A DNA stretch of 64,000 nt, taken from NCBI GenBank assembly GCA_051362555.1, contig CM120640.1, positions 38,852,788 through 38,916,787 on the forward strand, read 5' to 3'. The notes under the pieces were generated by a model that made no database searches, was not told the origin of the DNA, and saw only the letters and a program-made list of their open reading frames with translations. Below are positions 26,401 through 53,700 of this stretch, piece after piece. A program made the position numbers and the translations under genes. The DNA comes from Lingula anatina (lineage: Eukaryota > Animalia > Brachiopoda). Each line of letters starts with the position of its first letter. Within the stretch, counting starts at the first letter, position 1.

Positions 26401-29400
26401 GTCTATACTGAACAAAATGATTTCATTCTTAAATGTCTTGTTGTCAAGCAGGCGGTTAAAATTCTCCCTGGAAAAAAGTTTATTTTAAAAATCAGACAAT
26501 TTTAGCATCCTTCACAGAATTTACAAAATTTAGTAAAAATAATTTCATACAAGTCTATATGTAAAAAAAAAAAAAACACATATTAATGGAAAAAAACAAA
26601 TGAAATTAATATTCAGTGATAAAAATAAATCTTTACACTAGTCATGTACTAAATGCTTAGATTATAACTTTCCTTTTCTAAAGTAGCCATTGATACTTAC
26701 TTGTAAGGTGTAATGTACTTGTAGTTATAGGTATAAATGCAGTCCATTGCAACTTGTTGGACACTTGGATCTTTGTGTTTTAGTAACTAAAAGCATTCAA
26801 ATTATTTCACCATGACATAATGTTCTTTATTTGTTTTTGCTGTAATTGTTACTGCTACCATGACTGCACTCGACAAATATATCTTTCTTTGTATTATTTG
26901 GGACAAAATATAAATAAACAGATCAAATTGTCTAGGCACTAAGACAATATTGCAACTTGTTAGACATTTGTGCTTTAGTAATGAAAAAACATTTGGATGA
27001 TGTGAGCGCATTTTTTTTCTTGTTTTGAAAAGTAATGGTTAAATCTTTGCTAAATTTAAAAAAAAAATCAGATCATGTAATTCTGACAAAAAGACAAAAT
27101 CAAGTTTCTCATGGCATTTTTTGACTTTAAAGCTCACCTCCTGGTATAATTCTCTGAGCCTTGGCTCTTGGTACACTGATTTTGGGCTTTTGAATTTGGT
27201 GAATAACCTCAGGTGTGCTAATAATGTCCTAAAAACAAACATAATCAAATACAATTAACAGGGAACTTACATAAAAATCTGTTACATTAATTTTTCCTCA
27301 TCTTGTTCAAAAATCACATCTATGTCATGTCAGATAAATCTCTACTTACTTTGTTGGAGCTCTTTTCCGCTTCATCTTTCCCTTACTCTCTTCTCCTTCC
27401 TCCTCATCTCCCTGACTGCTATCCCCCTGGTCTACTTCTAACTCTTCATCCAAACCATCCCCAGGCTTTCTCAAATCTTGAGTGGGGGCCACATGTAGGT
27501 CAGCAGGGTAATACTCATTCCTGGATTATGAGTCATGATAGTAAATGCTAGCTTAACACATTTGACAAAAAAGTTAAAAGAAGCCAAACTATAAACTGAA
27601 TTTAAAATATTATATGTACGTCTCAAAGTTAAAGTGAAGTGTATGATTATGAAAAAAAACATACATAATCACTTTTTGAAGAAAAAAAAACATTTGGCAA
27701 TCATTAAAGATCAAAGAAATATACCATTATAGTAAATACTATTTTCTTTAAAAAAAGGGAAAAAGAATAGAGAATCTAAAAATAAAATTCAAACATTACT
27801 TACTCAAGAAATCTAAAGAACAAAGGAACAATTTCTCTAGTTTTAGCCTCACACTTGTCAGGAAACAGGTGCATAGCCTTCCAGAGAAGAAGACGAACAT
27901 TGGCGTGATCTGGTCTGTCTTTAGTGCTGGAGCATTTTGAACAGTGCAATCTGAAGATCTCCTCTAATGGTCTTTGTTCAATATCCTCTTCTTCTTCATC
28001 CACCAACTGGCCTTCTGGACGAGTTGTGCTGGAGTCTAACAGGCTTCTCTCTAAAAGTTAATTAAAAATGGTCAGTATATGACTTTCTATTCAACTTCAA
28101 CAGTAACTATGGACCTATCTCTGCCAGTTTTGGAGATAAAAGAGAAGCAAAATTTGCAAAGTTCAGTTCATGATGAAAAGTAGGTCAAAGGTCAATTTCA
28201 AGATCACATTTAGATTGTCAGTATATGACTTCATATAGAAACTATGGACCTATCTCTGCCAGTTTTGGAGATAAAAGGGAAGCAAAATTTGCAAAGTTCA
28301 GTTCATGGTGAAAAGTAGGTCAAAGGTCAATTTCAAGGTCACATTTAGATTGCCAGTATATGACTTCCTATTCAACTTCAATAGTAACTATGGACCTATC
28401 TCTGCCAGTTTTGGAGATAAAAGGGAAGCAAAATTTGCAAAGTTCAATTCATGGTGAAAAGTAGGTCAAAGGTCGATTTGAAGGTCACAGTAAGATTGCC
28501 AGTATATGACTTCCTATTCAACTTCAATAGTAACTATGGACCTATCTCTGCCAGTTTTGGAGATATAAGGGACTAAATGTTATAATTTTGGAATTACCTT
28601 AATGTGCCATAAATTTCCTACAGCAAAAATTAATTAAAATAAAGAAAAGGTCATTTTGGTCAAAATTCTTGAAATGGGAGGTGCTCTGAAGTTCCAGAAG
28701 TTCAAATTTGATGAAATAATGTCATTTTTGACCACAAGTTGTCTGCTTTGCCAAGCCTTATGTTTTATTTTTCCAGAGTTCAAAATTTATTATCCATTAC
28801 CGTACTGCACATTTTGCTTTCACCACCATTATGTACTTTTTGATACAGCATAACTTGAAAACCGTACGGAATACAAAAAAACGGAGACCACCCCCAGTGT
28901 TGGGCTTTACATGCTCTACAAAATGCAAAAAAGAATGGGTCTCTAGCATTAACGGTTCCCGAATTAGAGACAGTTTTCAGTTTCGGCATCTTATGGCCGC
29001 TACTCCCGTGAAAATGCACCGATTGACCCCAAATTCACGGAGATGAAAGATGACCTGAAGGGTAACACTTTCCAATAATATTATTGGTTAAGTCTGTGTG
29101 GTGTCTGAATAACAGGGCAAAAAAATTTTTTTTCATAAAAAATTTAATTTTTTTGAAAATTTTGGCCCGTTTGACCTTGAAGTAAAGGTCAAAGGTCAAA
29201 TCCAAGGGCATATTTGAAATCTACACATATGACTTTTGGAAAGCCGTCTGTAGAAATTTTTCCCATAACCCCTTCCGTAGGGTAGATAATTAGCATTTAA
29301 TTTTGTCATTTTTGGACAAGGGTGCATTTCAATGAGTGCCACACCCAGACCCCAATACCGACAAAGCCCAAATTTTACGTGGAACGAGTTGAGATTATAG

Positions 29401-35900: not shown

Positions 35901-36969
35901 ACTTACTCCAAAAGTGGCTCAAATGCCAAACTGTTTGTTACTTGCAGATGTCTTTTTAGCACATCTATTATTTCTTGCTAAAAAAGAAAAGTTAAAATTA
36001 TATATATAATAAAATCCATCTATTACTTAAAATCATTTTGTGTTTCAATTTCAAAATTAAATAAAAAATGTTACTAATTTTATATGTAAATAAATATGTC
36101 ATCATACTATCACTAAACTTTACTAAGATATGCAACCACACTTCATAACAATTTACCTACTTTATGGTGTACTAATTGTGCAAAATTGTTCACTTGTCCT
36201 GATATTTCACGGCGGAAGTTGGCTGCAAATGAGAAGAGACAACTGTATCTTTCAGTAATTTACAATAAACATATAGTCCTTATTCTCATTTATCAAACTG
36301 CAGTATATTTGACAAAGAAATGGATATTCAAAGTCTTAAATAGAATTTTTATAAACCTACTGTAGCAAAAATCCAATTTGAAGGTAAATGGTAGGGGAAG
36401 GGAGTGGGTTGAAGGCTTCTGACAAGAGAGTGAATGTTTCTGGCCATATAACTTCTAATACTAAGTCATGCTGTAACACCATCCTTGTGTCTTAGCATGA
36501 GAGTAAATACTTCAAACGTCATGTGTGAATACTGGAGACAAAAATTGTATTATATACTTACTGAAGTGTTCTGTACAGTTTAGCTCGGTCCATTTTTGTA
36601 ATGCTTCTCCAAAAAATGTTTCAACCTCTTCATCCTCTGTTACACGTCTGTCCACTCGTCTAATTACATCTATGTTGATGTTAGCGACTCTCTCAGAGAA
36701 CGTCAAGAACTGAAACGATCACATAATACATAATGATTACTGAAATGTAAAGCTATGTATTTTTCCAGAATCCATATGCTCTTAAATCAACGGCATCTAA
36801 GCAATCTAATACGACATTTTGTTAAAGTATTGCTAAGCTGAGGGTTTTTAAATAACCGTATCAATATAATATTTATAGTCATGAATCTAACAAATCATAT
36901 GCAAGACCCTTAGACGAAACTTACTCTAAATGTGTTTTCACTCCGATGGTAAGAAGATTTTGTTTTCAT
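1..36969 (-). CDS. UTP20: UTP20, small subunit processome component 20 homolog (multi-exon, about 50 exons in window, 3' end beyond the left edge)
   Basis: Spliced exons read MKTKSSYHRSENTFR|FLTFSERVANINIDVIRRVDRR..EVETFFGEALQKWTELNCTEHF|..DLVVNLARDLQADFTPHF..|NNFAAESFAFLMRK..., closely matching the recalled human UTP20 N-terminus (MKTKPVSHKTENTYRFLTFAERLGNVNIDII..). Later exons give RILYGKM, DFFENIRHIQ, RVPIALAMVKLL, LTKGYQLHVLSFTVH, FMLDYPLGK and HPHTWVRL. GT-AG boundaries keep phase wherever I checked them. Confidence 0.97.
4614..4848. mobile_element. Palindromic ~230-bp MITE (Harbinger/Tourist-like), copy 1
   Basis: Internal inverted symmetry (gatcga..ctccctgggg..ctgtcagctt / agctgacag..ctccccagggg..gatcca) and TAA/TTA-like flanks; homologous to three other loci in the window. 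Confidence 0.7.
5618..5890 (+). mobile_element. Degenerate 3' fragment of a non-LTR retrotransposon ORF2 (L2/CR1-like)
   Basis: Translates RPVLEYAAPVWVFGLTNELTALVEKSQERALKIIYPDLEY..LSER..PDHRLHYLL..YSLR with a stop, the typical post-RT region of CR1/L2-group LINEs. Confidence 0.75.
8496..8728. mobile_element. Palindromic MITE, copy 2
   Basis: Shares gatcgacctaactccctgggggttcacgctaaattgc..gttaattacccccttacagc..gtgagactcccc with copy 1; flanked by ttag on both sides. Confidence 0.72.
13077..13308. mobile_element. Palindromic MITE, copy 3 (opposite orientation)
   Basis: Reverse-complement similarity to copy 1; ends in gggaacccagtctta. Confidence 0.7.
14205..16221 (+). mobile_element. Helentron-associated non-autonomous element (HINE/pearl-like) with internal ~146-bp tandem repeats
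   Basis: 5' palindrome GAGGCGATACCGCCTC and subTIR GTACCACCAGC (14243-14253). About six core repeats at ~14600-15440 (AGGTCAAAGGTCA at 14642, 14765, 14906, 15052, 15198, 15344). 3' hairpin GTACCGCCAGCG-TACA-CGCTGGTGGTAC at 16189-16216 contains the inverse subTIR. Confidence 0.8.
16324..18898 (-). CDS. UTP20: UTP20 exon cluster (conserved DFFENI / GYQLHVL region)
   Basis: Exons 18761-18898, 18267-18538, 17626-17941, 17212-17354, 16807-17062 and 16324-16491; phases are continuous. Confidence 0.92.
19407..32869 (-). CDS. UTP20: UTP20 central exon cluster (HEAT-repeat region)
   Basis: Exons include 32792-32869, 32321-32499, 31871-31990, ~29725-29881 (VPLRYLLGMMYVNF), ~27803-28050 (DHANVRLLLWKAM), ~27349-27520 (NEYYPADLHVAPTQDLRK), ~26341-26468, ~24339-24505 (ILYGKM..IVFRFLAG), 23307-23502, ~22856-22993, ~22152-22405, ~19877-20031 and 19407-19562. 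Boundaries marked ~ are approximate. Confidence 0.88.
25677..25882 (+). mobile_element. Solo LTR (Gypsy-like), 206 bp
   Basis: TGTAACA...TGTTACA inverted termini, 4-bp TSD CAAA (25673-25676 / 25883-25886), TATATAAAA at 25771 and AATAAA at 25857. Confidence 0.85.
28069..29546 (+). mobile_element. Second, 5'-truncated copy of the same HINE-like family
   Basis: About 3.5 core repeats (28070-28570), internal sequence shared with 15520-16220, and the same 3' hairpin GTACCGCCAGCG-CTAA-CGCTGGTGGTAC at 29515-29542. Confidence 0.8.
33088..36709 (-). CDS. UTP20: UTP20 N-terminal exon cluster
   Basis: Exons 36562-36709, 36161-36222, 35907-35977, 35517-35711, 35221-35305, 34696-34755, 34365-34442, 33971-34126, 33484-33642 and 33088-33222; all have AG/GT ends and consistent phases. 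Confidence 0.9.
34932..35032. repeat. ~100-bp near-identical duplicate of 33626-33725 (UTP20 intron end, acceptor and first exon codons)
   Basis: aatatcacagactgaaacaagcatttgtct..tcattggtgaacaaccctggtt is present at both loci with about 3 differences. Confidence 0.9.
36925..36969 (-). CDS. UTP20: UTP20 coding exon 1 (MKTKSSYHRSENTFR)
   Basis: ATG at 36969-36967, 15 codons, then a GTAAG donor. Confidence 0.93.
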
Positions 36970-37176
36970 GGTATATTGTTGTTCAAACTCTGAACCAAAG
37001 AAAACAACACATATCCCCAAGTCACACGTGCATATTTTGTTTATCGGTGGTGAGTTGCGCATCCGGAGGCGCATGCGTAGAAACTGTACGGAAGACGAAC
37101 TTTCTCACAATCCATTCATTGGTGTCCATGTAAAGCCCACTTATTTCCAAGAATACTTTATCTGTTTTCATAAAGA
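36970..37176. promoter_or_regulatory. Compact bidirectional promoter / 5'UTRs shared by UTP20 and the MPP8-like gene
   Basis: 207 bp between divergent ATGs, locally CpG-richer. Contains E-box CACGTG at 37025-37030, NRF1-like GCGCATGCG at 37069-37077 and ETS core CGGAAG at 37089-37094. Confidence 0.75.
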
Positions 37177-37299
37177 ATGGCTGAGATGGAACCAGTGCAG
37201 GGCACAGAACCTGACACCAATGAAGAAGAGGAAGAAAATGAAGACGATGATGATATTTACGAAGTTGAGAAGATAGTAGGGATGTCAGTTTCACCGCAG
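37177..37299 (+). CDS. MPHOSPH8: MPP8-like exon 1 (acidic N-terminus + first part of the chromodomain)
   Basis: ATG 37177 to CAG|GTAAGC; encodes EEEEENEDDDDIYEVEKIVGM; phase 0. Confidence 0.9.
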
Positions 37300-40200
37300 G
37301 TAAGCACGCTCGGCTGTCACCTTGATTGGATAGTAAACGATTGTCGTAAAATCGCTAAATGATATTAAAACCGGGTGCATAAACTTGAAAACCACCTACA
37401 ACAACCTTGGACTGCCACATTAATCCAATACAATGCAAACATAAACTATAACAAGTGGTTAAAGCCTTTAAACCGAATGTCGTAAAGTCCCCATATACCT
37501 CCATAGAGACAATAAAATAGAAGAAGCTTGTGAAACAAGAAAAATCCAGTTCCAACATAATAATCGAAATAAAATACTGCCGGGCATCGGAGCGGCCTAA
37601 AACTTGGCACGCTTACCGCTAATACTGCAGGCTACATCATCCCGTCGCTCGTTTGTAAATTCCGTGCATGGCATACGCACAATCAAACCGTAAAAAACAA
37701 ATTCTCGGGGTGTCGTTGGCCAGGTCCACTCTAACCTACCATTACAAAAAAGAAGCCATGCCATTGGACAATGCGACCTCTGCGGTTACGTCATTTCCTG
37801 AATTGGATTGTTGAGTGGACCTAGCCAACGACACCCCGAGAATTTGTTTTTTACGGTTTGATTGTGCGTATGCCATGCACGGAATTTACAAACGAGCGAC
37901 GGGATGATGTAGCCTGCAGTATTAGCGGTAAGTGTGCCAAGTTTTAGGCCGCTCCGATGCCCGGCAGTATTTTATTTCGATTATTATGTTGGAACTGGAT
38001 TTTTCTTGTTTCACAAGCTTCTTCTATTTTATTGTCTCTATGGAGGTATATGGGGACTTTACGACATTCGGTTTAAAGGCTTTAACCACTTGTTATAGTT
38101 TATGTTTGCATTGTATTGGATTAATGTGGCAGTCCAAGGTTGTTGTAGGTGGTTTTCAAGTTTATGCACCCGGTTTTAATATCATTTAGCGATTTTACGA
38201 CAATCGTTTACTATCCAATCAAGGTGACAGCCGAGCGTGCAGGTAAGTGATACAAGCATGAGCATTCTTAGTCAGGTGTTTATGTTTACATTCACTATGT
38301 ATTTCAGTATTTAAACATTGCTGGAACGCTTTTTACAGCTTAAGGCACAGAAATGGACAGAGTCTAGGTTTTCTGTCTCTGATAACTACTAAAAGAAACA
38401 ATAAGGTGCGGTGATGGGTGAATACGGTATTAAGAATGGTCACGCTCAGCTGTTTAATTGATTAGTTAACTAACATTGTTTTATTACATTAAGAACAACG
38501 GAAAACGACTTCAGAATACCATAATAATCTACCTTAATGCAGTAAAAACGAGTTAAGTTTTTTTAAACGAATTAAATAAAATCCCCTGAGTACATACCCC
38601 ATATAAACCATATGATGGTAGAAGCTTATAAAACAGAATATCGAAAAAAAAAATAAGTGAGAAAAATCAACAGAAAATAGTAGATAGGGATCACCTTCAA
38701 ATTTGGTACATCTAATGAGTACCTACCTTTAATTTCCCAGGCTACACCCTCCGTTTGTAACTTTGTTTGTAAATCCAATATATCTGATTCCAGAATCAGG
38801 CCAAAACACTTTGTTGAATTAAACACTCGAGTGCCATTCAAGGACTCAACAAAAGCCAGTAGTGATGTAGGTTCAGAGTCATGATGAAGCTAGCTTTACT
38901 AAAAAGGACCCATGCCCTTTGACAAGTACAGATTCTAGGAATTTTGCACATCGGATTAACAAATAAACAGCAGGAAGATATAGCTGCGCATCCATGTAGT
39001 CCTGAACTTTAATTTGTTTTATAATTGAAATTAAAATTTCTCAAAATCTAACCTGTGCAATTCGGCAGAACTGTGTATGATTCACAATCAATGCATTGCC
39101 TCTGTTTCATTTAAGATTTTGACTAAATTGGATTTAAATAGCAGCTATTTAATAGAAAAGTGCTCTAGTCTAAATAGTGCCATGCAGAATTTTGTAGTCT
39201 CCTGGATGATAGCCTTCTTCCATACTTAAGCATCTTTTGTCCAGTTCATAATGAATGATCAGGATTGGTCTGTATTTATATGGTGGCAGTCTAATTAGAT
39301 ATACTAGTATATGTATAAGCACTATTCTCTTAAAATGAGTGAATTAGTCATTAGGCAAAGTAACTGTTTTATGCTGGTATAGACAAATGCATATGGGTCA
39401 AAACACGGTAACGGTGCCATGGGTGTCAAATTTTTTTTTGTTTCATTGAAATTTAAAATTTTTACATTTTTGTAGAAAACAAATCAAATTTTCAGATAAT
39501 GCAAGTGTCATTGATATACTCCCAGTACTTTTTCTGTGAGCCACTGGGAAACATAAAGGAAAAAAAAAATTGTCTCTGACGGGACACATGGTCATATTGG
39601 CCTGATTCAGATATTAGGTTGTTTTTTCAAGTTTTTATCACCCAAATATGTTAAACTAATCAGAAGTAATAGTTTAACATAGAAAACTGCCACCTATCAC
39701 TTATTTTGAGTAAAAAATTATTTAGCACTAGGAGTGGCGTGTCCCGTCAGAGACATTTGACTTCGAAAAGTTTTCATATTTTCCACATCTGGTAGGTTGT
39801 ATAAATGAAACTTAAAATCCTCTTTTAAATAATGATAAGTAATGATTATAGCTAAAAATTACAAAATTAAAACAATTTACAGTGAATTTATTGCCACATT
39901 TTATCGTTGTCTCTGACGGGACATTTTCTGTCTCTGACGGGACATTTTCTGACAGATGTGAAACACAAGGTTTTACATCTTCAATTGAATCATTTTCAAG
40001 TGTTCTGGTGTGTTACATTTCTTATTTTTCTTTTGCAACTGATCATTACTGGGTAATTCATTAACCATTACTGATTATTAGCTAGGTTGACTGTCAGTGA
40101 TTAGGTGTTGACATGTGCCGTCAGAGATCATGTCAGAGCACTAGAACTGTGAGCAGGTCATTCTGTTCACTGCATGTGCATGATTTAGAACAGAGTCTGA

Positions 40201-41727
40201 AGGAGACCTCCAGCTCCAACCATATGTTGTGGTATTTGATGATCTGCACCATAACAAACTGTCCGTCTTCACTTGTAATAAGGTCATTCTCGAAGACCTC
40301 CAACACCAGCATTCATTCAGCAAAGTCCATTACTGGTCAGACGGAGCACGAGCCCCCAGTCAATTCAAAAGTTGGTTTTTACTGTCTAAACATGGTACTA
40401 TCATGAAAGAGATTTTGGTATGGAAGTGCAGTGGTACTTTTTATACCACTGCCCATGGCAAAGGACCAGTGGATGGGATCATAGGGGAAATGAAACATCA
40501 GGTTTGGAGAGCAGTGCTCCAGAGAAAAATGGTTGTAGATACACCTTATCAATTTTATTTGGCTGGCAAAGAATTATGCCCCAATGTCAACATAATGCAC
40601 CAGACTGCAGCAGATATTGTAGCAGCTACCGCGCCCATCAGCAGTCGCTGGGAAAACTGTCCATCTGTTTCAGGAATTCAACACTTCCAACAGCTTCAGC
40701 CCCAGCTTCGTGGACATGTTCTTGTGTCAACCAATTCTTTGTACCAGCAACCCTCTTAATATGCTAAACTTATTCATATGACTGTGGACTTTGATTTGCC
40801 TGCACATCCGCACTATGACAATGTCGGTCAAGGCACAGCTCACTCTCACCAGGGAAATTTTGTCATTGCGGAATTTGCTGCCAGGAAAGGAGTAAAACAA
40901 TTCTTAGGTCAGGTCATCCATGACACTAAAGACGGCGAAGTGAAAGTCAGTTTCTTACGTACTGAAGGTTCTGGCAAAAGAAACTTTGTGTACCCTGCCA
41001 CAGAAGACAAAGCATGGATTCCCATAAAAGATGCAAAGGAATTCCTTCCAATGCCTAGCATAGACACTCGTGGACTTAACTTGTTTCCATCACCTGTTAA
41101 TGTGACTGCTTGAAAAAATCTCTTAAGTGCAGAAAAGATATGTGTTCTAAGACTAATACTTGTACCTTGTACCTTGCAATATGAATCACAAAAGTCTTGA
41201 TTAAATGAAATTTCAAAGAGAATTTTGCATTGGAGTTTTAGTAAAAAAAATACAGGGGTCAAAAATGTCCCGTCAGAGACGGACCTTTAAGTGATTGTCA
41301 TTCCCACATTAATTTCAATACAAATTAGCTGCTTGTTTTACATAATCCTTTATGGTCTAGCTAAATAAAAATGTATTTAAAAGTAACCATGTGGATCGTT
41401 TACCAACTGTAATTTTTAAAATTGTCTCTAAAATGTCCCGTCAGAGACATTTCAAATACCGTGTTTTGACCCATATTCTAATGTAAACATTAGAGACAAA
41501 ATAAAACAGTCTCCTCTAACACATTCAACATTTAAATTTTGCTCTGAAAAGTCAAATCCATTTAGTCTGGGCAAAACTCTATGAAACTGCTTGAACTCTT
41601 CTGTGTGACACAATAATCTGTCTGGCATTGTAAGTCTGTAACACTGTGAAAGATATTCCACATTAGAATGTGAGCAAAGGTCTTGAAAAGCCCATTTTAG
41701 AAGCAAGATATCTAACAAATATGTATA

Positions 41728-41776
<49 letters not shown>

Positions 41777-44700
41777 CTGAGATATTGCATTATGATCACA
41801 CAAATGAAACCAGATTATCATCCAACTAAGGTTTTTGTTCACAAAAACTCAATTACATGAAAGTCACGTTAAATTAACAAATACTAGTGAGAAAAATTTT
41901 TTTTTTAATTAGATGAAACAGAAAATAAAACACATCATTGCAGTTTCCTTGTAATGATTGTTACATATTCCAGTGTGTTTGCTGCTGGCATTAACAATAT
42001 GATGACATCTAGATTTGATGATCTCACTGCCAACTATGTCAGTGGCCTTAAGGTTTATTCATTTATGCAGAACATATACAGGTTGCTTGATGCAGACTTC
42101 TGGATTGTACAGTATAGTCAGTCCTTAGCAGCAGTGTTCTGTGTAGGTGGTAAGTCAATTCTCGTTAAACAAGCCTCTGTCACTTAATTTTTATGTCATG
42201 TAGGATTTTTTTGTGGAAACTATAGCACAGGTGCAGGCATGGTAAATGAGGGGATTCATCAATAGGATGTATTTTAATATGTACCAGTAATGTAAATGTA
42301 GCTTGTAATTTGGAAGTATGTAGTTCTTTGGCAAGATGAATGTACTCACTTTTCACTATTAAAATAGATGTTTTTTTTTATCATTTAGAATGAACTGCAT
42401 TAGGACAAAAACAGTTTAAACTGAGGTTTTGAAATTTGAATATTTTTTTAAACCATTGTTATCTTTTAAATTGCTTAACTGTCCATTTACCAATTAAATT
42501 GGTGTGCTATGTAATTGAGTGACTGGTTATTCTGAAAACTCTGGCACTGCTTATAGGTGTTAAGAAGCAAATAAAAAAAAGTTAATTAAGTTTATAGATG
42601 CAGTGTCATGTTCACTTGTTCGATTTTGCCAAATACCCAGTTAAGTATAAAAGATTAAAATGTCCCAGTTTAATTTGTGTTCAGCCCCAAAAAGTAAAAA
42701 ATAACAAAGTTTTGGTTAATTTTTGATGCACTATGATATAATTTTTGCTGGGACCTCAGTCTCACACATTTTGCATAAGTATGGATTTGCAGATGTAGAT
42801 TAAAAAATTGCTATGCATTTACACTGGCAATGCTATACAACCTTAAAGGGGATTTGGAGGGGGGATTTTGGAAACCAAATTGAAAGTTCAGTGATGAAAT
42901 AGAATTACACCTTTTTCTGGGAGTAGGAAGCAATTTTTAGTTTGTTGATTTTCTAAGACTGGGTTCCCATATCTACTAGTAGATAGATCTAACAGGATTG
43001 ATCCATCTCCGAATGGTTTTTCACTAAATTGCTTTCAGCTTAAACGGCTTAGATGTCTGGCACGCCTACTAAAGCTGCTAAACTATAATAAATTACACCT
43101 TTACAGTTTCAGTAGGTGTGACAGACATCTAAGCCACTTAAGTTGATTGCAATTTAGCAAGAATCTCCCCGGAGATAGATCGATCCACAGTTAGTATGAT
43201 AGGGTCTGGGAATGGTCCCTAACACATTGGGCTCAGAAAAATTCATTCCTCAAAATGTTTCTTTGGTATGATTAAATTTGAAATGTTCGATTTCTTCATT
43301 GCTGTTTGCTTACCTGAACTCAGATTAATCATTTCAAGCAAAAAAATTATTAAAAAGTGGTGCAATGTTTTGTTATTCTTTCACTCCTTCATAACCACAA
43401 ATTATTTAACAGTGATACCTTGAATAGGCAATAAGTTTTCTTTATAATTAATATAATTGCTATTAGGGTATTTAATAGATTTTATTGTTACTTCATAGTT
43501 CAGACTGACAGTAAAGCCAGTAGTCACTAACACATATTATTTATGAGGTGAACATTGGAAGCAATGATTGTCATTTAAAGAATCTGTATTGCCTAATCAA
43601 TGGGGCCATTCACACTAGCAAATAAAGTATGATCCAATAAACCCTGATAGAACCAACTAATAAAGTCACTTTGCGTTCACACTGCTAAGGGCAACTGTAC
43701 AGTTGCCTCTCGTCTCATACTTCCTCAGGGGTGGATTGAGACCATCTTCTGGGTCTTCTAGAAGATGATCAGATTTTCAAATTTATATTGACGGGTATCT
43801 AATTTTTTCTGTTGGAAGACAGTCAAAAATGGAGGATAGATCAACAAAGATAATTTGGAAGACTGTCAGAAAGTATCTCTGGATCAGCCCCTGCTTCCTG
43901 TTAAGCATGCGCATTATTGTTCACAGTAGAAATTGATGACATGAAAAATATGGTGGAAGTCTAAGTAGTGATGATTGTTAAGTTGTATAAAATATTATTT
44001 TCTTCAACAAAATAAAGGAAATATTTCAATGAAAAAACATGTGATGTTAATTTGAATAGTATATGAAATATGATGAATTGCCTACTCGTGTGCATGCCTT
44101 CGAAATGTAAACATCCAATCTTAACTGCAGTTTTAGTGTTTAACGCAATAGAACTGGAGTTCCAACTTAAAGTTCTTCTTCCCCTTCCCCCCCCTCTATA
44201 ATAATGATATTCATAAGCCATCAACTCAATTTATTATGGTAGCTAAATGATTTTCAAAACTAGAGGACACCTGCATATGCTACACATAATAAGTGTTGAT
44301 GTTTAACCTTTAAAGTTTTAGGGCAGTTTACAAGGTGAAGTTTGTTAAGTGACTAATATATCAGTGTTGATAATGATATGGGTCTTTCCATCACAGTGCT
44401 TTGTACATTTGTCATGTTGGTTATAAGACTAAAGTAGATTTACATATATCAAGTCACATAAATTATACAAATCAGCAGGACCCAAAGAACATGTGTAGGC
44501 TGTTTTATCATGTAATAGAGTACGAAGCATTTTTTTTTAGTGGTCTTGTCCTGTTGTAATTACTCTCTTTATTCTTGTTTTTTAACTGTTCTGGTTTATC
44601 CTAATCAAGCGTAAATATATTCCCGTATATTTGCATTAGCCCGTTTCCTTTTTTTTCTCATATTTCACATTAGTGTGGATCAATTCTTTCTTTTTTGTTA

Positions 44701-47700
44701 TACAGACCGTAAAGCACATGTCATATTACATAAAATGAAAAATTTATACTAACAAATATATTTGTTCCGTTGTGTAATATTTTGTATGTGAATAAATTAT
44801 TACTTTTACTCCATTTTTTAGTAAGCCTGTGTTCTGTAAACAAACCAAGGGTAACTTATAATACTGACCTACTTTATTTATAATGTATATAATATATATA
44901 TATATATATATATACACTATATAATGCATATAATGATTTATTATTAATAGCAGATACAGTACATGTATAAGAGGCTGTGAAGTAAATATGAAAGCAAGTA
45001 TGTTACATATTATACAAATATACACGTTGAATTTTAGAAATAATTAGTATACACAGGAAAAGTACCTTGTTACAGGAGTGATGAACACTGTGCAAAAACT
45101 ATTACCAGCAATTTTTAGTGATTTTCACAGCAAAAAATACCATCATATTTATAATTTAAATTGCCAATACTGTTGCTGTAGTGAACAGAAGCTCTGGCAT
45201 TGAATTTTCAGGGAAGCAGATTGTACAAGGTGAGGTGGGCAGGCTACTCACCTTCTTGGGATACCTGGGAACCCCAGGACAACCTGCTCAGCTGCCTGGA
45301 CATGATTGAAGACTACACCAAGCAAGAGGAGGAGAAACGTAGAACAAGAGAGGAGGAAAAAAGACTTGTAAATATGTTTTGTTTGATGTGAAGTTGAACT
45401 CGTTATAATGGTTTGTGGTGTTGTTCTCTTCTTTACTAGGTGTTAGTGAGTTGATGCTTTAAAAAAAGAGCAAGGTCAGTATTGAATGGTAAGAACTCAT
45501 CATTGCACTTACATCTAAAAGAAAGATATATTCTTTTTTATAGTAAATGCAAACTAATTCTTGTCAATTTAAGAAAAAATATAGCATGTTTTACCCCACC
45601 TAATAAATGTGATTTTTTAAAACTATTTTACTAGTAAATTGAGTTTTAATGTCCCATTTTAATTTTTTGCCACATCTTTACAGAAAAGGGAACAGGAAGG
45701 TGCTGGGCATTCTAAAAGAAGAAAGATGCATTATGATGAGGAGAAGAGTGATGGAGACGTGGATACAGTAAAAGACACATTCTGGAGGGACCTGGAAGAA
45801 GGAAAGATCAACGTCTTTCAAACAGGTGACTTGTATTCCAAAGTGAAATCACAAGGGCGTGCTGCTCGGCCAACATCATTCACTCCACTTTTCACTTCTC
45901 CTAGAAAAGGGAACAGTCAAGAAGAGGAGAGACCACCAAAGCAAAAAGGAAAAAGAGGGAGAAAACCAAAGACTTCAAAAGAAGTGAAAATTTCCAAAAC
46001 ATCTGATAAAGTACAGCAGATGACTGCATTGAAGGATTTTGTTTTAATCAGTGATGATGAAGAAGATAATGTCATGATAAACTTAAAGATCAATGAACCT
46101 CATTCAGATCTGACAAAGAAAGATCATAAAGAAGTTGATGAAATGGAATTGAAACCTAAGCAAGAGTCCTCTAGTGGAATTATCTCATTAGTCAATAAAA
46201 AGATGAAAGATAAGACAAAAAAGAAAAGAGAGGAAATAAAAGGACATACCACCAAGGCAAATGATGGAAAACAAACAAAGAAAATAAAAAAAGAGAAGCT
46301 TCAGTCAGTTGCTGATATGCCAATAAAGACTGATCCAGATTGTCCAAAAATAACCAAGATAAATGACAAAAGCAAAGCTCAAAGCACAAGTGAAGATGTA
46401 AAGAATGAAATGTCAGAACTTACAATGGTTTTCACAAAAAGTGAAAAGGGGATTGCCACAGAGAAAGATGTAAATGAAGTGGAGAAGAAGAAAGAAAAAT
46501 TAACCGAGGAAGCAGAAAAAGTACCAAAAAAGAAAAGGGTATGATATTTTGTGTGGTCCTGACACTTAGTCCTGATTCTTTATTCTTTTAGGATTTCCAA
46601 CATAAAAGTTTTCTATTGCATGTGACATAATTATGCAGGTAATTTTTTTGTTATTTATCATGTGCTTTCAGCACCAGGTTTTCATGATGAAATATTGAGA
46701 AGGGTTTTGATATACTGCCAGCTTGGCTTGTAGAGATGGAGGTATTCTGGATTTTCAGAAACCCTTCCATAAATCTCTCACTATTAAACTGAAAAGGTTG
46801 TAAGGAATTTTATTTCTGAGTCCTGGTGCATGATTATTCATCGCCTGAATTTTAGTCATTTTGGACATTTTAGCACCTGTTTTATATATTACATCATAAT
46901 GTAGGGGTATATGTATATATTATTGCAATTTGTATATTTACCCATGCTGGTAACATATCATTTTCTGTAATTATTGGTAGAAGTTGGGGAGAAATGTGAC
47001 TTCAAATAAATCGGAATACAATACATATTCTAGTATATCAAGTTCAAGCAAAGAATATGAATGCCCAATCAAAAAAGAATCAGTCCTGTTAGTAGGGCTT
47101 TCTCCTACACCATATTTCATATCTACAAACCATGTATCTGGCTGGCAGTACATACTCATTTGGCAGCCCCTGTCTCTCTAATGCTCTAGTTAATTCAATT
47201 TTAATGCTTATCTGTTCCTTGAATTTGCAGTAATAATTCATTGGTACATCTCACAGTATTAAGATTGTAAAAGAGAAGACCATAAAGTTGTCTAATATGC
47301 CATGCATCAAATGGTATTTAAATTCCAGATAAAACTGGATGAAGATCCTGGTATCAAAATTAGTGAGTATTATTGCAATTTGATAAATGTGTGGCACTTT
47401 GAGATTTCAGGCTATAAAATTTATTTACTTTAAGATTTGATTGCCATTGGACAACATTTCACTTACTGAATCTATTATTTTAAATCAGAATATTTTCATT
47501 AAATCTTGAAAATGTTCTTGTCATAGCATTTTCTTAAACACAAGCTTTCAAGATAAGTAAACTTTGTTTAAGTAATGTAATTCATTTGATACAAGCGCAC
47601 ATTTTTTATATATTTCTTTCTACAATTTGACATCATGGTTAGTCTTAACTCTTAAAATTATAAAGTAAAATAATGATTTTCACTTGTACGTTAGTCACTT

Positions 47701-50700
47701 TAGAATCTGATATATTAGTGTTTTTCCTTATAGTCATACCTGAGTTCATACTTGAATTTTTGCTTCATCTTCTAACCTTATTTTCTCTTTTGGCTCTTTA
47801 CAAAATACTCAGATGAACTTTACTAAAAAGTTTCAGTTTAGAGATGGCAGGAATTTACGTGGAATTTTTGTCAATGCATAATTTTGAGTTCTTAATACAA
47901 GTTTATTATATATTATATACAAACAAGCCAAACAAAACATATTTGTGAATTATTTTTCAAATGAAATAGTTATCATGTTTATGCCATTCATGGAAGAAAG
48001 GAAAATTGGTTGCAAGTTCACAATAAAAGTTTTCAATCTTCTTTTTCAGCTATAACTTCCTCTGATCCAGTTACTACTAACGGTGAATTCATGGAGGATT
48101 CTCAACTTACTACTACTATTACTACTACTACATCTACTAACCAAACTCTGGATACTAACAGTTCTAGTTCTAGTAGGGACAATACTGATTCAGTTGTTTG
48201 CAGTGTGTCACCTAACGTAGCTCGGGCTAGCAGCCCATTAGATATGTCAGGTAGTGGCAAGACACCAGTCATTGCACCACTGGTCTCGGGTTCAAATGAA
48301 ACTGGTTCTAAGGTTTCTCTTCCTCGTGGGGACATTAAACTGGATTTCTCCAAATGTCGGGTTCTGCTTAAGCCTGTCTCACTCAAAGCTAATGCACTCA
48401 TATCAAAACAGGGCGGCTATTCTGTGTCTAAATTGGTGTCGGATACCTCAGCAGAGAAGGTTGGTGGAGAAAGCACCGAGGGTCAAGAAAAGACATGTGG
48501 GAGTGCAGTAGAATTAACACCCAGCAATGATAGAGAATTGTTTAGTAATTTAGCCAAAGTAACCAAGGCAGTTAAAGAGGATGATAGTGACAGTGATGAC
48601 AGTGGTGCAGGTGCAGTTAGGGTAGCCAAACCAACTCTTGTCAAATTAACTCCTGGTAACTATGGGAGTAGGGAAATCAACAGGAGGTTTTTGAAGAAGG
48701 AGAGATCTGCATTTTCTTCACTACACCAGGACTTCTCACACAAAGAAAAACTGCCTTCAGCAGCAACCAGAACCTTTAAAGAAAAGCCAGATTTACCTGT
48801 GAAATCAAAGTTTGGAACTGAAAGCATGTACTGTTCTACTGAAGGAAATACAAACCCAATTCTACTAAAGCCTGCAGATAATTTATCTGACATGCCAATT
48901 CTTGGTGAATCTGACACCATTTTTATAAATAAAAAGTGTGAGGAAAGCAGCGAGAACAATAAGAATAAATCTGTTGAAACAAGAGATAGCACATCTAGTG
49001 CTGTTGCTTGTGAACTGAGAGAGGGAGTGATAGAAGCTGATGTGCAGGAATCAGAAGAAATGAATCAGCTAGGCACAGTCCCTACAGTGGAAGTAGAATC
49101 AGTTCCAGACAGTAAAGAAAATTTGTTTGAGTCTGGCATGTTTTGTGCAAGCATAGAGGGTAGCCCATTGGGAGATAGATACATTAAAGACGTCCCAAAG
49201 CTAGAAGTTGGCAGTAATGTTCAACAACAAACCCACAGAAGCCAGCAGCTTGATGTATATGGTACTGCTTGTAGAAAAGAACAATTAGAACCCTTTGGAA
49301 ACATAACTAGTGCAGAATTACAGTTGTCTTCAGCAGACACTAAATTGGTCCCAGTTGATGTGGAGAAGAGAGAAGCTGGGGTGGCAAACATCAGCCCTCC
49401 ACCAATATTAGAGCCTGTAGGCAATGTACAGCAAACTCAGTCAGATTTAGAAGAAAAACCATCTCAAGCCATGGAAGAAGCAGATTTGAAAGCAGTTATG
49501 TCACAAACTACATTAAATGTAGAATCCATTACTTCTTATGCTGGTCCTAAAGTAGAGGGACAGACTTTAAAACCAGGAGACCAAGCTGATGAAGCACAAA
49601 GTGTGATAGAAACTGTGGAATCCAGTTGTACAGAGGCAATTACATCTCCACCTAAACCACATTTCCCTGGATCAGGAAAAGAACTTGATTCTAAAGCAAT
49701 ACCACAAGACACTCTACCTAAGGAAATTGACACTGCAATTCCCACTGATATTGCAGGGGTTGCTCTGTCTGCTAATTCAGTCATTTGTATGAACACTGTT
49801 GAATCAACAGCAAAGACGCAGTCAACAACATCTAAAACTGAGACAAACCAAGCTTCACAACATGTGCAACCCCTTTCTGAAATGGCAGAGAAACAGTCGG
49901 AAAACAGGGTAGATAGTAATGAAATTATGACAGAAACACCCAAGAACTCGTTGAGCAGTAAGCAGAAAAAGGAGCCAATTTCAACAGGAGCATTCAAAGC
50001 AACACATAGGGAGGCGGTTGCAGTTTGTCATGAACCTGATGAGCAGGAAATACAGCCAATTTCAGATGCTCTGTCTGCTAATTCCATAATTGGTGTGAAC
50101 ACTGTTGAATCAACAGCAAAGACACAGTCAACGACATCTAAAACTGAGACAAACCAAGCTTCACAATACGTGCAACCCCTTTCTGAAATGGCAGAGAAAC
50201 AGTTAGATAACAGGGTAGATAGTAAAGAAATTATGACAGAAACAACAGAAAAGACACAGTCAACAACATCTAAAACTGAGACAAACCAAGCTTCACAACA
50301 TGTGCAACCCCTCTCTGAAATGGCAGAGAAACAGTCAGATAACAGGGTAGATAGTAAAGAAATTATGACAGAAACAACAGAAAAGACACAGTCAACAACA
50401 TCTAAAACTGAGACAAACCAAGCTTCACAACATGTGCAACCCCTCTCTGAAATGGCAGAGAAACAGTCAGATAACAGGGTAGATAGTAAAGAAATTATGA
50501 CAGAAACAACAGAAAAGACACAGTCAACAACATCTAAAACTGAGACAAACCAAGCTTCACAACATGTGCAACCCCTCTCTGAAATGGCAGAGAAACAGTC
50601 AGATAACAGGGTAGATAGTAAAGAAATTATGACAGAAACACCCAAGAGCTCATTGAGCAGTGTGCAGAAAAAGGAGCCAATTTCAACAGGAGCATTCAAA

Positions 50701-53700
50701 GCAACACATAGGGAGTTGGTTGCAGTTTGTCATGAACCTGATGAGCAGGAAATACAGCCAATTTCAGATGCTCTGTCTGCTAATTCCATAATTGGTGTGA
50801 ACACTGTTGAATCAACAGCAAAGACACAGTCAACAACATCTAAAACTGAGACAAACCAAGCTTCACAATATGTGCAACCCCTTGCTGAAATGGCAGAAAA
50901 ACAGACAGATAAGAGGGTAAATAGTAAAGTAAGGATGACAGAAACACTGAAGAACTCATTGAGCAGTGTGCATAAAAAGGAGCCAATTTCAACAGGAGCA
51001 TTCAAAGCAACACATAGGGAGTCAGTTGCAGTTTATCATGAACCTGATGAGCAGGAAATACAGCCAATTTCAGATGCTCTATCTGCTAATTCCGTCATTG
51101 GTGTGAACACTGTTGAATCAACAGCAAAGACACAGTCAACAACATCTAAAACTGAAACAAACGAAGCATCACAACATGTGCAACCTTTTGCTGAAATGGC
51201 AGAGAAACAGTCAGATAACAGGGTAGATAGTAAAGAAAGGAAGGCAGAAATGCCAAAAAGCTCATTGAGCAATGTGCAGAAAAGGGAGCCAATTTCAACA
51301 GGAGCATTTAAAGCAACACATATGGAGTTGGTTGCAGTTTATCATGAACCTGATGAGCAGGATATACAGCCAATTTCCGATGCTCTGTCTGCTAATTCCA
51401 TCATTGGTGTGAACACTTTTGAATCAACAGCAAAGACACAGTCAACAACATCTAAAACTGAAACAAACGAAGCATCACAACATGTGCAACCTTTTGCTGA
51501 AATGGCAGAGAAACAGTCAGATAACAGGGTAGATAGTAAAGAAAGGAAGACAGAAACGCCAAAGAGCTCATTGAGCAGTTTGCAGAAAAAGGAGCCAATT
51601 TCAACAGGGGCATTCAAAGTAACACATATGGAGACAGTTGCAGTTCACCATGAACCTGATGAGCAGGAAATACAGCCAATTTCAGACCCAGTTAATGTGA
51701 TTGATGTGAGAATGGAAGATCCATGTGTACTTGAGATGAAGGATTCACAAAATGCACTACCTAGCACTGAACCAACTGTCACAGGTTTTGAGGAGACTGT
51801 ACCAGACGGGCAGAAGAAATCAGATGAACACAGCCATGGAACAGATACACTGCAGCTTAAAACTGCAATGGCAACGGAGAAGGAAATATCCGAGACACCG
51901 CCGTTGGTTAAAGACACTGAACCAACAACAGAAGATACACAGTTGTCTTCAGATGACATTAAATTTTTTCCAGTTGACATTAAGCCTCATGTGGCTATAG
52001 AAAGTACAGGTAGTGAAAGCAAACTTACAGAAATAGATCTGAAACAGACTGTAACAAGTGTTGATCCCAGTGAATTAAGCAAATCCAAATTGGCAACAAA
52101 TTCAACCCTTGCTGATATACTACATGAGTCGGAGGAAAGTCCAAATGACAATCTACCAGTGTCAGTGAAAGACTTGAACCAAAGAGAATTGAATCTGGAA
52201 CCAGATCTAAGTATTCTAAAAAATCCAGACCAAATTAAGGATGATGAGGATCTTTTAGGAAAATATCATTCAGAAGTGGCAGTCTTGTCCAGTGAGCAGC
52301 CAGTTGAGGCACCAGTGACAGAGAAAGGTGATCAGTTTGATGCCGAAGAATTAATACATGACACTGACAGGGTGGAAGTAACACAGACTGAGGCAAGTGA
52401 CTTTGGTGTTGAACATACTACAATGGAAACACCAAAACATTCTGAACCAGTACCAGTGAATATTATTGAAACTACAGCACATGTAGAATCAACAGAAGTG
52501 GAGGCTTCCAGAGATGAGGAAACGGATGTCAAACAAACCAAAAAGCTTTCAGAAGATGAAAATCTAGAGTTACACACAGCACATACAGTGGAACTGGGAC
52601 CTACTGAAATGGAACTTGATGTTAGGGCAATTGTAGCTGAAACTGAAGGAGTTGAGGAATCCAATACAATGGCAGATGATACCACAGTAAATACCAACAA
52701 TGTGCTGCTTTCTGTTACAGAGGAAGAAACTCAGTCTTTCACAACTGCCAAAGTGACACAACTCATGTCATTTATGGGGCCTTCAGAGGTGACAGTGGAT
52801 AATACACAGAATTCAACTTCAGACCTGGAATCTGAAATCATGGTCTTTGCATCAAATGAACAGCAAGTTATAGCAGTAGGGAAGCCAACTGGGGTTGATA
52901 ATGTACTTCCTTCTGGGAGTACATGTAATAACACACCATGTTTGGAGCCCACTGCTGTCCCTGGAATAGAAATGGACACAGATGTAGTGCATGTACCGGT
53001 AGTTGTAGAAACACAACCAGTAGATGCTGTAGAAACCCTTGTTGATGAAACTTCTACTGATGCACAATTCATTGCAGCAGATGAGAACCCACAGGCTACA
53101 GATGTACCAAATGTTCCAACAAAAGATGAGCCTGTAGCATCAGAAAATAAGAATATGCTAGAGAATGAACAATGTTCTTCTTTGGTTAAAGCATGTTGTG
53201 TGGTCAGCATAGAGCATAATAAAACATCTAGTAATTATAAATCAGGAGATGTGAAACCAAGTGGAGAAGAAAATGCAGCCGTTGAAAAACCAGAGGTAAA
53301 GCCTGTAGTAGATTTGCATGGTGCGGAAGATACAGCTATGATACCCCCAGCACACAGCCAGCAAACCCAATCAGCTATAGAATCTACTGTGGGGGATATT
53401 GTGAAAACTACTTATGATGTAGCACGTGCTGTGTCAGATGAAATACTAGCTTCAGAAAAAAATAATGAGCCCAAGGGGGGATTGATCCCTTCTGTGAAAA
53501 AGGAAGAACTGACATTGAGTATTACTTCTGGGTGTATTCAAGATGTTCCAGAATGCAAGAGGAATGTTTCAGGTGTTTTGCAAGAACCTGGCAAGGATTA
53601 TGTAAAAAAAGCAAACTCAAGGAAGTTATTGACAGACTTTGAAACAAATACTGCCAAGAACAAGGAGAAAATGTCAAAGATGGCCTCATTAGTGCTACCT

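What the first reader, a model, noticed from the sequence alone, without database searches (positions are those of the whole stretch)
37297..38247. Foldback transposon inserted exactly into the MPP8 exon-1 splice donor, duplicating it
Seen: the 8-bp TSD is CAGGTAAG, the exon/intron junction itself. The upstream copy now reads CAG|GTAAGC. The downstream copy keeps the perfect CAG|GTAAGT, 943 nt further on. The 427-bp arms are nearly identical, suggesting a recent insertion. In pre-mRNA they could fold into a long hairpin that brings both donors together at its base. Inference: (a) use of the distal donor extends exon 1 into a stop (37360-37362), truncating the chromodomain or triggering NMD, so a TE could dampen the host's TE-silencing gene; (b) the distal CAG|GT could act as a recursive AG/GT site that removes the TE as a ready-made intron and regenerates the donor, although its polypyrimidine tract is poor.
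Basis: partly seen in the sequence, partly recalled or inferred. Interest (0 to 1): 0.8.

Follow-up and report, generated by a model that had tools for sequence, protein, structure and literature searches.

The report
Hairpin transposon copies MPP8 splice donor
In a lamp shell (Lingula), a 935-base hairpin-shaped jumping element sits on the first splice signal of the chromatin gene MPP8 and has copied that signal; four other DNA samples lack it, and because the upstream copy is predicted to stay strong the cell likely still removes the element with the intron, so this is likely a rare, mostly harmless insertion and not a trick against host defence.

Summary
A 935-bp non-coding element (37305-38239; 427-bp arms with 2 differences) is flanked by the 8-bp repeat CAGGTAAG, the exon-1 donor of Lingula MPP8. 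In 4 of 4 DNA runs a contig crosses an empty site with one donor, and element depth is tens to hundreds of times flank depth (medians). So this is a polymorphic copy of a high-copy family. No carrier DNA or RNA was identified, so splicing of this allele is untested. Scored on this window's own introns, the upstream donor stays strong (above 22 of 28). The downstream CAG is a very poor acceptor (above 2 of 29), so recursive removal is unlikely, and its predicted junction is letter-identical to the unspliced empty allele. Flanks of other copies hint at G-N-T-N-N-A-N-C, not splice donors. The site lies about 330 bp from a UTP20/MPP8 head-to-head promoter, a simpler reason for the landing place. 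One new route to damage: an element-borne acceptor plus the copied donor define a 53-nt frameshifting exon. This scan noted similar donor-duplicating insertions in other genomes. Verdict: real, ordinary kind, modest interest.

The parts
36563..36712 (-). UTP20 second coding exon (head-to-head neighbour)
   Evidence: Matches residues 16-64 of the UTP20 chain 7mq8_SP, E 6.4e-15
36925..36969 (-). Likely UTP20 first coding exon (ATG at 36969), 208 bp from the MPP8 ATG: inferred bidirectional promoter between them
   Evidence: 15 codons starting MKTK; the next exon matches from residue 16; splice inferred, not read in RNA
37177..37299 (+). MPP8 exon 1, coding part (41 codons, start of the chromodomain)
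   Evidence: Identical to the N-terminus of P0003-P0007
37297..37304 (+). Left target-site duplication = proximal donor CAG|GTAAG, +6 now C
   Evidence: donor score 9.5, above 22 of 28
37305..37731 (+). Left arm (long terminal inverted repeat, begins CACGCTCGG); holds the in-frame stop 37360-37362 and AATAAA at 37511 and 37568
   Evidence: other copies end at 37305
37732..37812 (.). 81-nt unpaired middle spacer
37813..38239 (+). Right arm
   Evidence: other copies end at 38239
37925..37933 (+). Element-borne donor GCG|GTAAGT (third competing donor)
   Evidence: score 8.6, above 21 of 28; GT..AG joint 37927>38190 in 6 reads of run X19, most likely from another copy
38190..38242 (+). Predicted 53-nt cryptic exon between an element-borne acceptor (AG 38188-38189) and the distal donor; frameshift, stop in exon 2
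   Evidence: acceptor score 2.5, above 3 of 29; the same acceptor appears in the X19 joint; fully paired in the hairpin; inclusion untested
38240..38247 (+). Right target-site duplication = distal donor CAG|GTAAGT (native downstream context)
   Evidence: donor score 11.9, above 28 of 28; as acceptor -0.5, above 2 of 29
45212..45367 (+). MPP8 exon 2 (rest of the chromodomain)
   Evidence: Pfam Chromo E 4.6e-10; RNA joints 37299>45212 and 45367>45684

Best explanation
A 935-bp non-coding element with 427-bp inverted arms sits between two copies of the MPP8 exon-1 donor and is absent from four other DNA samples; it is likely a young cut-and-paste insertion from a high-copy family that landed by chance in open chromatin near a two-way promoter, and the spliceosome likely keeps using the upstream donor, so the element would leave with intron 1 and the allele would be near-neutral. 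Shown: the structure, the 8-bp duplication, the empty sites, the high family depth, the gene identity and normal 37299>45212 splicing in samples of unknown genotype. Mechanical: an 8-bp staggered cut spanning -3..+5 of a donor always leaves the exon end and five of six intron bases intact upstream, and creates a second donor downstream. Inferred: mobilisation in trans by an unidentified transposase (8-bp TSD; Mutator/foldback, hAT or P type not decided); choice of site by promoter-proximal accessibility; and dominance of the proximal donor, because it scores well, lies near the cap and is made 943 nt earlier. A minor leak to the distal donor or to the 53-nt cryptic exon would give stop-containing RNA and is not excluded.
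For: Empty site in 4 of 4 DNA runs from 4 studies, with bridging contigs at flank depth (110, 103.5, 20.3, 45.7). No listed holder reaches more than 0.78 of the sampled words (weak). Element-to-flank depth medians are 862, 502, 298 and 34 (summed contig depth, not a copy number). Other copies end at the same two bases with mixed flanks (agreement 0.44-0.54). The proximal donor scores 9.5, above 22 of 28 donors in this window. A random insertion in the mapped gene spans puts a donor junction inside an 8-bp TSD with P about 0.004, so a high-copy family should do this now and then. The UTP20 ATG is about 330 bp upstream of the site, and Mu insertions concentrate in open chromatin (PMC2774946, abstract). 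Intron 1 already holds other repeats.
Against: No carrier DNA or RNA was identified, so donor choice on this allele is not measured. The distal donor scores higher (11.9). C at +6 occurs in only 1 of 28 window donors. In the equilibrium fold, +5 and +6 of the proximal donor are paired in the stem, while -2..+3 of the distal donor are mostly open. The acceptor is 7 kb further on, so both donors and the hairpin can exist before splicing. Five X2 contigs of other copies align on to 37300, so their flanks resemble GTAAG; 281 loose-end rows were not shown. Absence from 4 of 4 samples is also what a deleterious allele would show. The splice matrices rest on only 28-29 introns.
Confidence: 0.63

Rival explanations
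1. Splicing hypomorph: on the insertion allele a good share of transcripts uses the stronger distal donor, either as a 943-nt exon-1 extension (stop after residue 61) or as the 53-nt cryptic exon 38190-38242 (stop after residue 65). Both cut the chromodomain and would trigger NMD; the hairpin would decide the ratio.
For: The distal donor is above 28 of 28 window donors, and +5/+6 of the proximal donor are paired in the stem. Both products stop early. The element's own acceptor at 38189 appears in a GT..AG joint in run X19 (6 reads, 5 starts). The allele is absent from 4 of 4 samples. Recalled, from no call: with two strong donors, the one nearer the acceptor often wins in vitro.
Against: The proximal donor is still strong. 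An extended first exon would exceed 1 kb. The element acceptor is weak (above 3 of 29) and fully paired in the stem. The X19 joint may be a DNA deletion in another copy ('between: not known'). No 38242>45212 joint is listed in 4 RNA runs, but those runs are of unknown genotype and shallow, so this carries almost no weight.
Confidence: 0.2
2. Promoter-level effect: the insertion matters mainly because a dsRNA-forming, high-copy repeat now lies 130-330 bp from the start codons of MPP8 and UTP20. Small-RNA-guided chromatin marks, or early polyadenylation in the left arm, would lower one or both genes.
For: The ATGs are 208 bp apart, head to head. The stem is 427 bp. Family RNA is abundant from other loci (over 100 loose-end reads at each terminus in X13). 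AATAAA stands at 37511 and 37568.
Against: There are no chromatin, small-RNA or carrier expression data. Other repeats in intron 1 appear tolerated.
Confidence: 0.08
3. Assembly artefact or one-off somatic event: the element is not a heritable allele at this site.
For: No listed contig in 4 of 4 DNA runs bridges flank and element (table cut, 2316 pieces not shown).
Against: The ends match the family ends exactly, the 8-bp duplication is clean, the spacer is unique and the arms differ at two pairs. A snap-back artefact would mirror flanking DNA, not create a family member with a TSD (inference). In X2 the bridging contig stops 30 letters past the joint, where an insertion allele would rejoin; this is an unresolved hint.
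Confidence: 0.06
4. Recursive or introner-like self-removal: the distal CAG|GT is first used as an acceptor, which removes the element and regenerates the donor; the family targets donors to exploit this.
For: AG|GT are juxtaposed by the TSD. A donor scoring 6.4 lies 33 nt downstream (38275) and could define an RS-exon (requirement from PMC8605326). Introners that take both sites from the insertion site are described (PMC9860276). Five X2 flanks resemble GTAAG.
Against: The acceptor scores -0.5 and ranks 126 of 448 AGs in intron 1. It has 2 T where all 29 annotated acceptors have 6-11, two upstream AGs, and positions -12..-3 paired. The element is already intronic, so nothing needs rescuing. 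Seven flank consensuses give G1 in 6, T3 in 5, A6 in 6 and C8 in 5; CAGGTAAG fits 1 of these 4 positions (read by eye).
Confidence: 0.03

Closest known systems
Foldback-type non-autonomous DNA transposons (Tetris of Drosophila virilis; PMC4079207, passages)
   Same: Long TIRs, non-coding variable middle domain, 8-bp TSD (Tetris 8-10 bp), no autonomous partner in hand, internally deleted derivatives (joints).
   Different: No internal tandem-repeat domain here (only a 26-nt motif twice per arm at 77%); CAC...GTG ends; superfamily undetermined.
Galileo two-TIR non-autonomous copies (P superfamily; PMC3573991, passages)
   Same: Long TIRs without transposase; arms of one copy nearly identical while copies differ more from each other.
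   Different: Galileo makes 7-bp TSDs and often has tandem repeats in the TIR; no transposase link could be tested here.
MITEs (PMC10741241, passages)
   Same: TIRs, TSD, no coding capacity, high copy number, polymorphic insertion near a gene.
   Different: 935 bp (MITEs mostly under 500 bp); 91% of the element is inverted repeat.
Introners (PMC9860276, PMC11282704; passages and parts 1-2 of 5)
   Same: A TIR element whose TSD carries splice-site letters.
   Different: Introners create a new intron in an exon. This element lies at an old intron's start, adds no intron, and has no usable acceptor at its end.
Recursive splice sites / ratchet points (PMC8605326, passages)
   Same: Juxtaposed AG|GT with a possible short downstream RS-exon (33 nt).
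   Different: Very weak acceptor, masked by a stem; only 943 nt from the exon; absent from other individuals rather than conserved.

Membership tests
Non-autonomous TIR DNA transposon (MITE-like) | Terminal inverted repeats shared by many copies | tested here: met
   Arms; other copies end at 37305 and 38239
Non-autonomous TIR DNA transposon (MITE-like) | Target-site duplication confirmed by an empty site | tested here: met
   Single donor in 4 of 4 DNA runs
Non-autonomous TIR DNA transposon (MITE-like) | No coding capacity | tested here: met
   No stop-free frame of 90 codons lies inside the element
Non-autonomous TIR DNA transposon (MITE-like) | High copy number | tested here: met
   Median depth 34-862 times flank in 4 runs; indicative, not a count
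MITE in the strict sense | Small size (mostly under 500 bp, PMC10741241) | tested here: not met
   935 bp; shorter deletion forms occur among other copies
Foldback (FB/Tetris type) | Long TIRs around a non-coding middle; TSD 8-10 bp | tested here: met
   definition from PMC4079207
Foldback (FB/Tetris type) | Internal tandem-repeat domain in the TIR | tested here: not met
   Tandem Repeats Finder finds nothing inside the element at score 30
Mutator / hAT / P superfamily assignment | Autonomous partner with matching ends and a diagnostic transposase | not testable with these tools
   No genome held; no copy in metagenome, prokaryote or viral collections
hAT | 8-bp TSD with short (5-27 bp) TIRs (PMC10741241) | tested here: inconclusive
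   TSD length fits; the arms are 427 bp, though long arms can arise secondarily
Introner | Insertion into an exon creates a new intron | tested here: not met
   The empty allele already has the intron at this donor
Introner | Family members recur at intron boundaries | tested here: inconclusive
   Only flank consensuses were available; they do not resemble a donor, but 5 X2 flanks align through GTAAG
Recursive splice site | Juxtaposed acceptor AG and donor GT | tested here: met
   38241-38244
Recursive splice site | Functional acceptor (pyrimidine-rich tract, accessible) | tested here: not met
   Score above 2 of 29; 2 T against 6-11; paired in the stem; prediction only
Recursive splice site | Cryptic RS-exon with a downstream donor (about 50 nt, PMC8605326) | tested here: inconclusive
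   Candidate donor at 38275, score 6.4, 33 nt downstream
Recursive splice site | Recursive intermediate or lariat in nascent RNA | not testable with these tools
   No carrier RNA; the junction equals the empty allele
MPP8 orthologue (host gene) | N-terminal chromodomain plus C-terminal ankyrin region like MPP8 | tested here: met
   Pfam Chromo and Ank; named MPP8 isoforms at 100% to exon 2; residues 483-777 match PDB 8qfb MPP8, E 4.6e-61
HUSH transposon silencing in Lingula | MPP8 acts with TASOR and Periphilin to silence mobile elements | not testable with these tools
   TASOR-like proteins occur in invertebrates (PMC10578480); the passages seen give no Lingula data

The most novel reading that the evidence does not exclude
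The insertion allele is a natural hairpin-gated splice switch in a chromatin-silencing gene. Before the 427-bp stem closes, an acceptor carried by the transposon pairs with the donor that the insertion copied and creates a 53-nt poison exon. After it closes, the stem hides that acceptor and sets two strong donors side by side. Transcription speed or dsRNA-binding proteins would then tune MPP8 output, and a family that favours GTAA-containing targets near promoters would make such alleles repeatedly.
Probability: 0.1. Interest if true: 0.6.

Novelty: new member of a known kind. Interest (0 to 1): 0.27.

Why it matters
As it most likely stands, it is a tidy example of how an 8-bp target duplication lets a transposon land on a splice donor without breaking the gene, plus a pointer to an active, very abundant long-TIR family in Lingula that I did not find described (searches; supplements and repeat libraries not seen). 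If a carrier shows distal-donor or cryptic-exon use, the allele becomes a natural test of donor competition across a long perfect hairpin, and a natural MPP8 hypomorph in a spiralian, where I saw no test of MPP8 function.

Tried and rejected
Other copies with individual flanks. No genome is held. The window has only the two termini. A 17-mer scan of metagenome contigs gave 118 loci, none matching beyond 24 bases, so all are chance. Scans of genome contigs and viral contigs gave 0. A per-copy TSD catalogue was therefore impossible. Carrier RNA: no RNA holder listed. The four RNA runs laid (4 of 9 raw-read runs; 6-25% of each read) list no 38242>45212 and no 37295>38239 joint at the 3-read threshold, and their genotype is unknown, so this is no evidence on donor choice. 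Arm identity as a clock: rejected. The junction 37299>38243 as a test of recursion: rejected. The first accessibility run over the whole hairpin overflowed and gave all 1.0; it was repeated with rescaling. The 150-nt-span values depend on the window chosen and are not used. Rfam: two below-threshold miRNA hairpin hits over the palindrome centre and one snoRNA hit, all under gathering scores, taken as chance. The 6-bp TSD reading (G...C ends) gives the same empty site but is rejected, because other copies end at 37305/38239. A paper search on duplicated donors found 0 papers and a review sought by DOI was not held, so donor-competition rules are recalled. A search of earlier findings by this sequence, near this place and by Lingula foldback words found nothing.
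Full report
Observation. The 8-mer CAGGTAAG stands at 37297-37304 and 38240-38247, and once more at 24795, unrelated. Between the two lies a 935-bp segment, 37305-38239, made of two 427-bp inverted arms and an 81-nt spacer. The arms differ at 37611/37933 and 37721/37823. The 16-base terminus matches only twice in the window with up to 3 mismatches (0.06 expected). No stop-free frame of 90 codons lies inside, and no tandem array. The sense RNA folds into one stem of about -856 kcal/mol that closes at G37304-C38240.

Host gene. Exon 2 (45212-45367) is a Pfam chromodomain piece (E 4.6e-10). It is 100% identical to 4 of 4 hits, all named M-phase phosphoprotein 8 of Lingula anatina. Their N-terminus equals window 37177-37299 joined to 45212, and the C-terminal part matches the MPP8 structure 8qfb (E 4.6e-61). 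UTP20 runs the other way. Its second exon matches residues 16-64 of a solved UTP20 and a 15-codon first exon starts at 36969. The two start codons are thus 208 bp apart, and the insertion lies about 330 bp from the UTP20 ATG. A shared promoter is inferred.

It is a real transposition footprint and a polymorphism. Four of the 11 runs that hold the stretch were laid. In X1, X2 and X5 a contig skips exactly 943 letters. In X10, a more divergent haplotype, it joins the flanks with a small indel. The bridging contigs have flank depth (110, 103.5, 20.3, 45.7), which fits animals without the insertion. Depth over the element is 862, 502, 298 and 34 times the flank (medians; summed contigs, not a copy number). 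Contigs from other copies stop at 37305 (9, 12, 12, 5) and 38239 (11, 13, 10) with mixed flanks, which fixes the ends and the 8-bp TSD. No listed piece bridges flank and element, but 2316 pieces were not shown. In X2 the bridging contig ends 30 letters past the joint, where an insertion allele would rejoin; I cannot resolve this. An artefact is unlikely given family-exact ends, a TSD and a unique spacer (inference), but the allele has no independent confirmation here.

Arm identity is not a date. At 37469/38075 both arms carry a letter absent from all laid depth in 4 of 4 runs, and at 37399/38145 from 78-100% (contigs drop rare variants, so a rare subfamily could carry it). The arms are therefore more alike than the copy is to its family. 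Galileo copies show the same (98-100% within a copy; PMC3573991, passage). Youth is shown by the empty sites.

Targeting. Individual flanks could not be obtained. The seven flank consensuses at 37305 and 38239 (5-13 contigs each, agreement 0.44-0.54), read by eye as 8-mers, give G at 1 in 6 of 7, T at 3 in 5, A at 6 in 6 and C at 8 in 5. CAGGTAAG fits one of those four positions. This is weak: the same old loci probably recur across runs, the letter next to the element is partly constrained by the alignment, and 281 rows were not shown. Against my reading, five X2 contigs align on to 37300, so some flanks resemble GTAAG. In the gene spans mapped here (29 introns, 44.4 kb), a random 8-bp TSD covers a donor junction with P about 0.004, so a family this abundant should do so occasionally. 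Such events are also survivable, because the upstream copy keeps the exon end and +1..+5. Promoter-proximal accessibility is a simpler reason for the site; Mu insertions follow open chromatin (PMC2774946, abstract only).

Splice signals. Spliced alignment of P0007 and P0010 gave 29 introns, from which I built position matrices. Donors, trained on 28 with MPP8 intron 1 left out: proximal CAG|GTAAGC 9.5 (above 22 of 28), distal CAG|GTAAGT 11.9 (28 of 28), and an element-borne GCG|GTAAGT at 37927, 8.6 (21 of 28). C at +6 is rare (1 of 28). As an acceptor the distal CAG scores -0.5 (above 2 of 29; rank 126 of 448 AGs in intron 1). It has 2 T in positions -20..-5, where all 29 annotated acceptors have 6-11, and two AGs upstream, where 26 of 29 have none. 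In the ensemble fold its positions -12..-3 are paired; +5 and +6 of the proximal donor are paired; the distal donor is mostly open at -2..+3. Recursive sites are tandem acceptor-donor pairs in long introns that need a short cryptic exon (PMC8605326, passages). A candidate donor lies 33 nt downstream (38275, score 6.4), but the acceptor fails. Recursion would also give the same mRNA as direct splicing, and its intermediate is letter-identical to unspliced RNA of the empty allele.

RNA. Four of nine raw-read runs were laid on 37000-46000, 6-25% of each read. The joint 37299>45212 has 6, 2, 0 and 6 reads; 45367>45684 has 4, 0, 0 and 9. No joint from 38242 is listed (threshold 3 reads). Genotypes are unknown and the proximal junction is the same for both alleles, so this confirms the gene model only. 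Element reads are abundant but mostly 90-95% alike and run on into foreign flanks, so they come from other copies. One joint matters: 37927>38190, GT..AG, 6 reads from 5 starts in X19, joins the element-borne donor to an element-borne acceptor. It is most likely splicing in another copy, though a DNA deletion copy is not excluded. In this locus that acceptor lies 53 nt before the copied donor, defining a cryptic exon 38190-38242 that shifts the frame and stops after residue 65; the 943-nt extension stops after residue 61. The acceptor is weak (2.5, above 3 of 29) and buried once the stem forms.

Mechanism. Most likely (0.63) the proximal donor still dominates, being strong, cap-near and made first, and the element leaves with intron 1. 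The role of cap proximity and order of synthesis is recalled knowledge; my paper search on it found nothing. A splicing hypomorph (0.20), a promoter-level effect on MPP8/UTP20 (0.08), an artefact or somatic event (0.06) and recursive or introner-like removal (0.03) are the rivals. The idea that the transposon dampens its silencer lacks support. HUSH targets are described as long intronless transcription units (PMC8770142, passages). TASOR-like proteins exist in invertebrates (PMC10578480, abstract and passages), but I saw no test of MPP8 in Lingula. One rare allele shows no selection for the element.

Comparison and novelty. Structurally it works like a foldback or two-TIR element (Tetris, PMC4079207; Galileo, PMC3573991; passages) and like an oversized MITE (PMC10741241, passages). 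It lacks the tandem-repeat domain of FB-type elements, and its superfamily cannot be fixed without a transposase. It is not an introner (PMC9860276 passages; PMC11282704 parts 1-2 of 5), since no intron is gained. A published Lingula assembly reports 31.7% repeats (PMC13121700, passages). Its supplements and repeat library were not seen and may list this family. PMC10901741, PMC5751038 and PMC9783078 were seen as passages and did not change the reading. Unchecked notes of this scan record similar donor- or acceptor-duplicating insertions in several other genomes, which fits a recurrent, ordinary outcome. Verdict: new member of a known kind; interest 0.27.

Noticed in passing
window 36925-37299: UTP20 (minus) and MPP8 (plus) are head to head, start codons 208 bp apart; the insertion lies just downstream of this inferred two-way promoter.
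   Followed up: partly
window 47965-56136: A single stop-free frame of 2723 codons inside MPP8, with 102-residue (306-nt) repeats at 49761-51686. Isoform P0007 leaves it at a donor at 48250 and resumes at 56492, so MPP8 may have an optional giant exon of about 8 kb.
   Followed up: no
window 39500-41460: A second mobile element in intron 1, with 21-nt subterminal repeats and two frames (40184-40759, 40760-41113). The first looks like a broken transposase by a recalled motif; no Pfam hit. RNA from related copies covers it.
   Followed up: no
window 4619-4849, 8506-8728, 13076-13310, 42952-43187: Another palindromic mini-element family, four copies 69-79% alike, one in MPP8 intron 1.
   Followed up: no
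window 43727-43893 and 60542-60707: A 167-bp repeat twice in MPP8 introns (86% alike), with hundreds of RNA reads from other loci.
   Followed up: no
window 37304/37305 and 38239/38240 (loose ends): Over 100 reads each in X13, and over 50 in X16, join the element's end to two closely similar fixed flanks, so one or two highly expressed loci carry a family copy in their RNA, or the end is nested in a larger repeat.
   Followed up: no
window 37216; runs X10 and X19: X10 (DNA) and X19 (RNA, 11 of 11 reads) share G at 37216, and X10 has 12 other letters plus gaps over about 400 flank bases: a divergent population, whose DNA run also lacks the insertion.
   Followed up: partly
run X17, window 37216 and 45212: Seven reads cover exon 1 but no exon 1-2 junction read is listed; counts are too low to interpret.
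   Followed up: no
window 14575-15443, 28065-28572, 57552-58178: Tandem repeat arrays; the first two are related.
   Followed up: no
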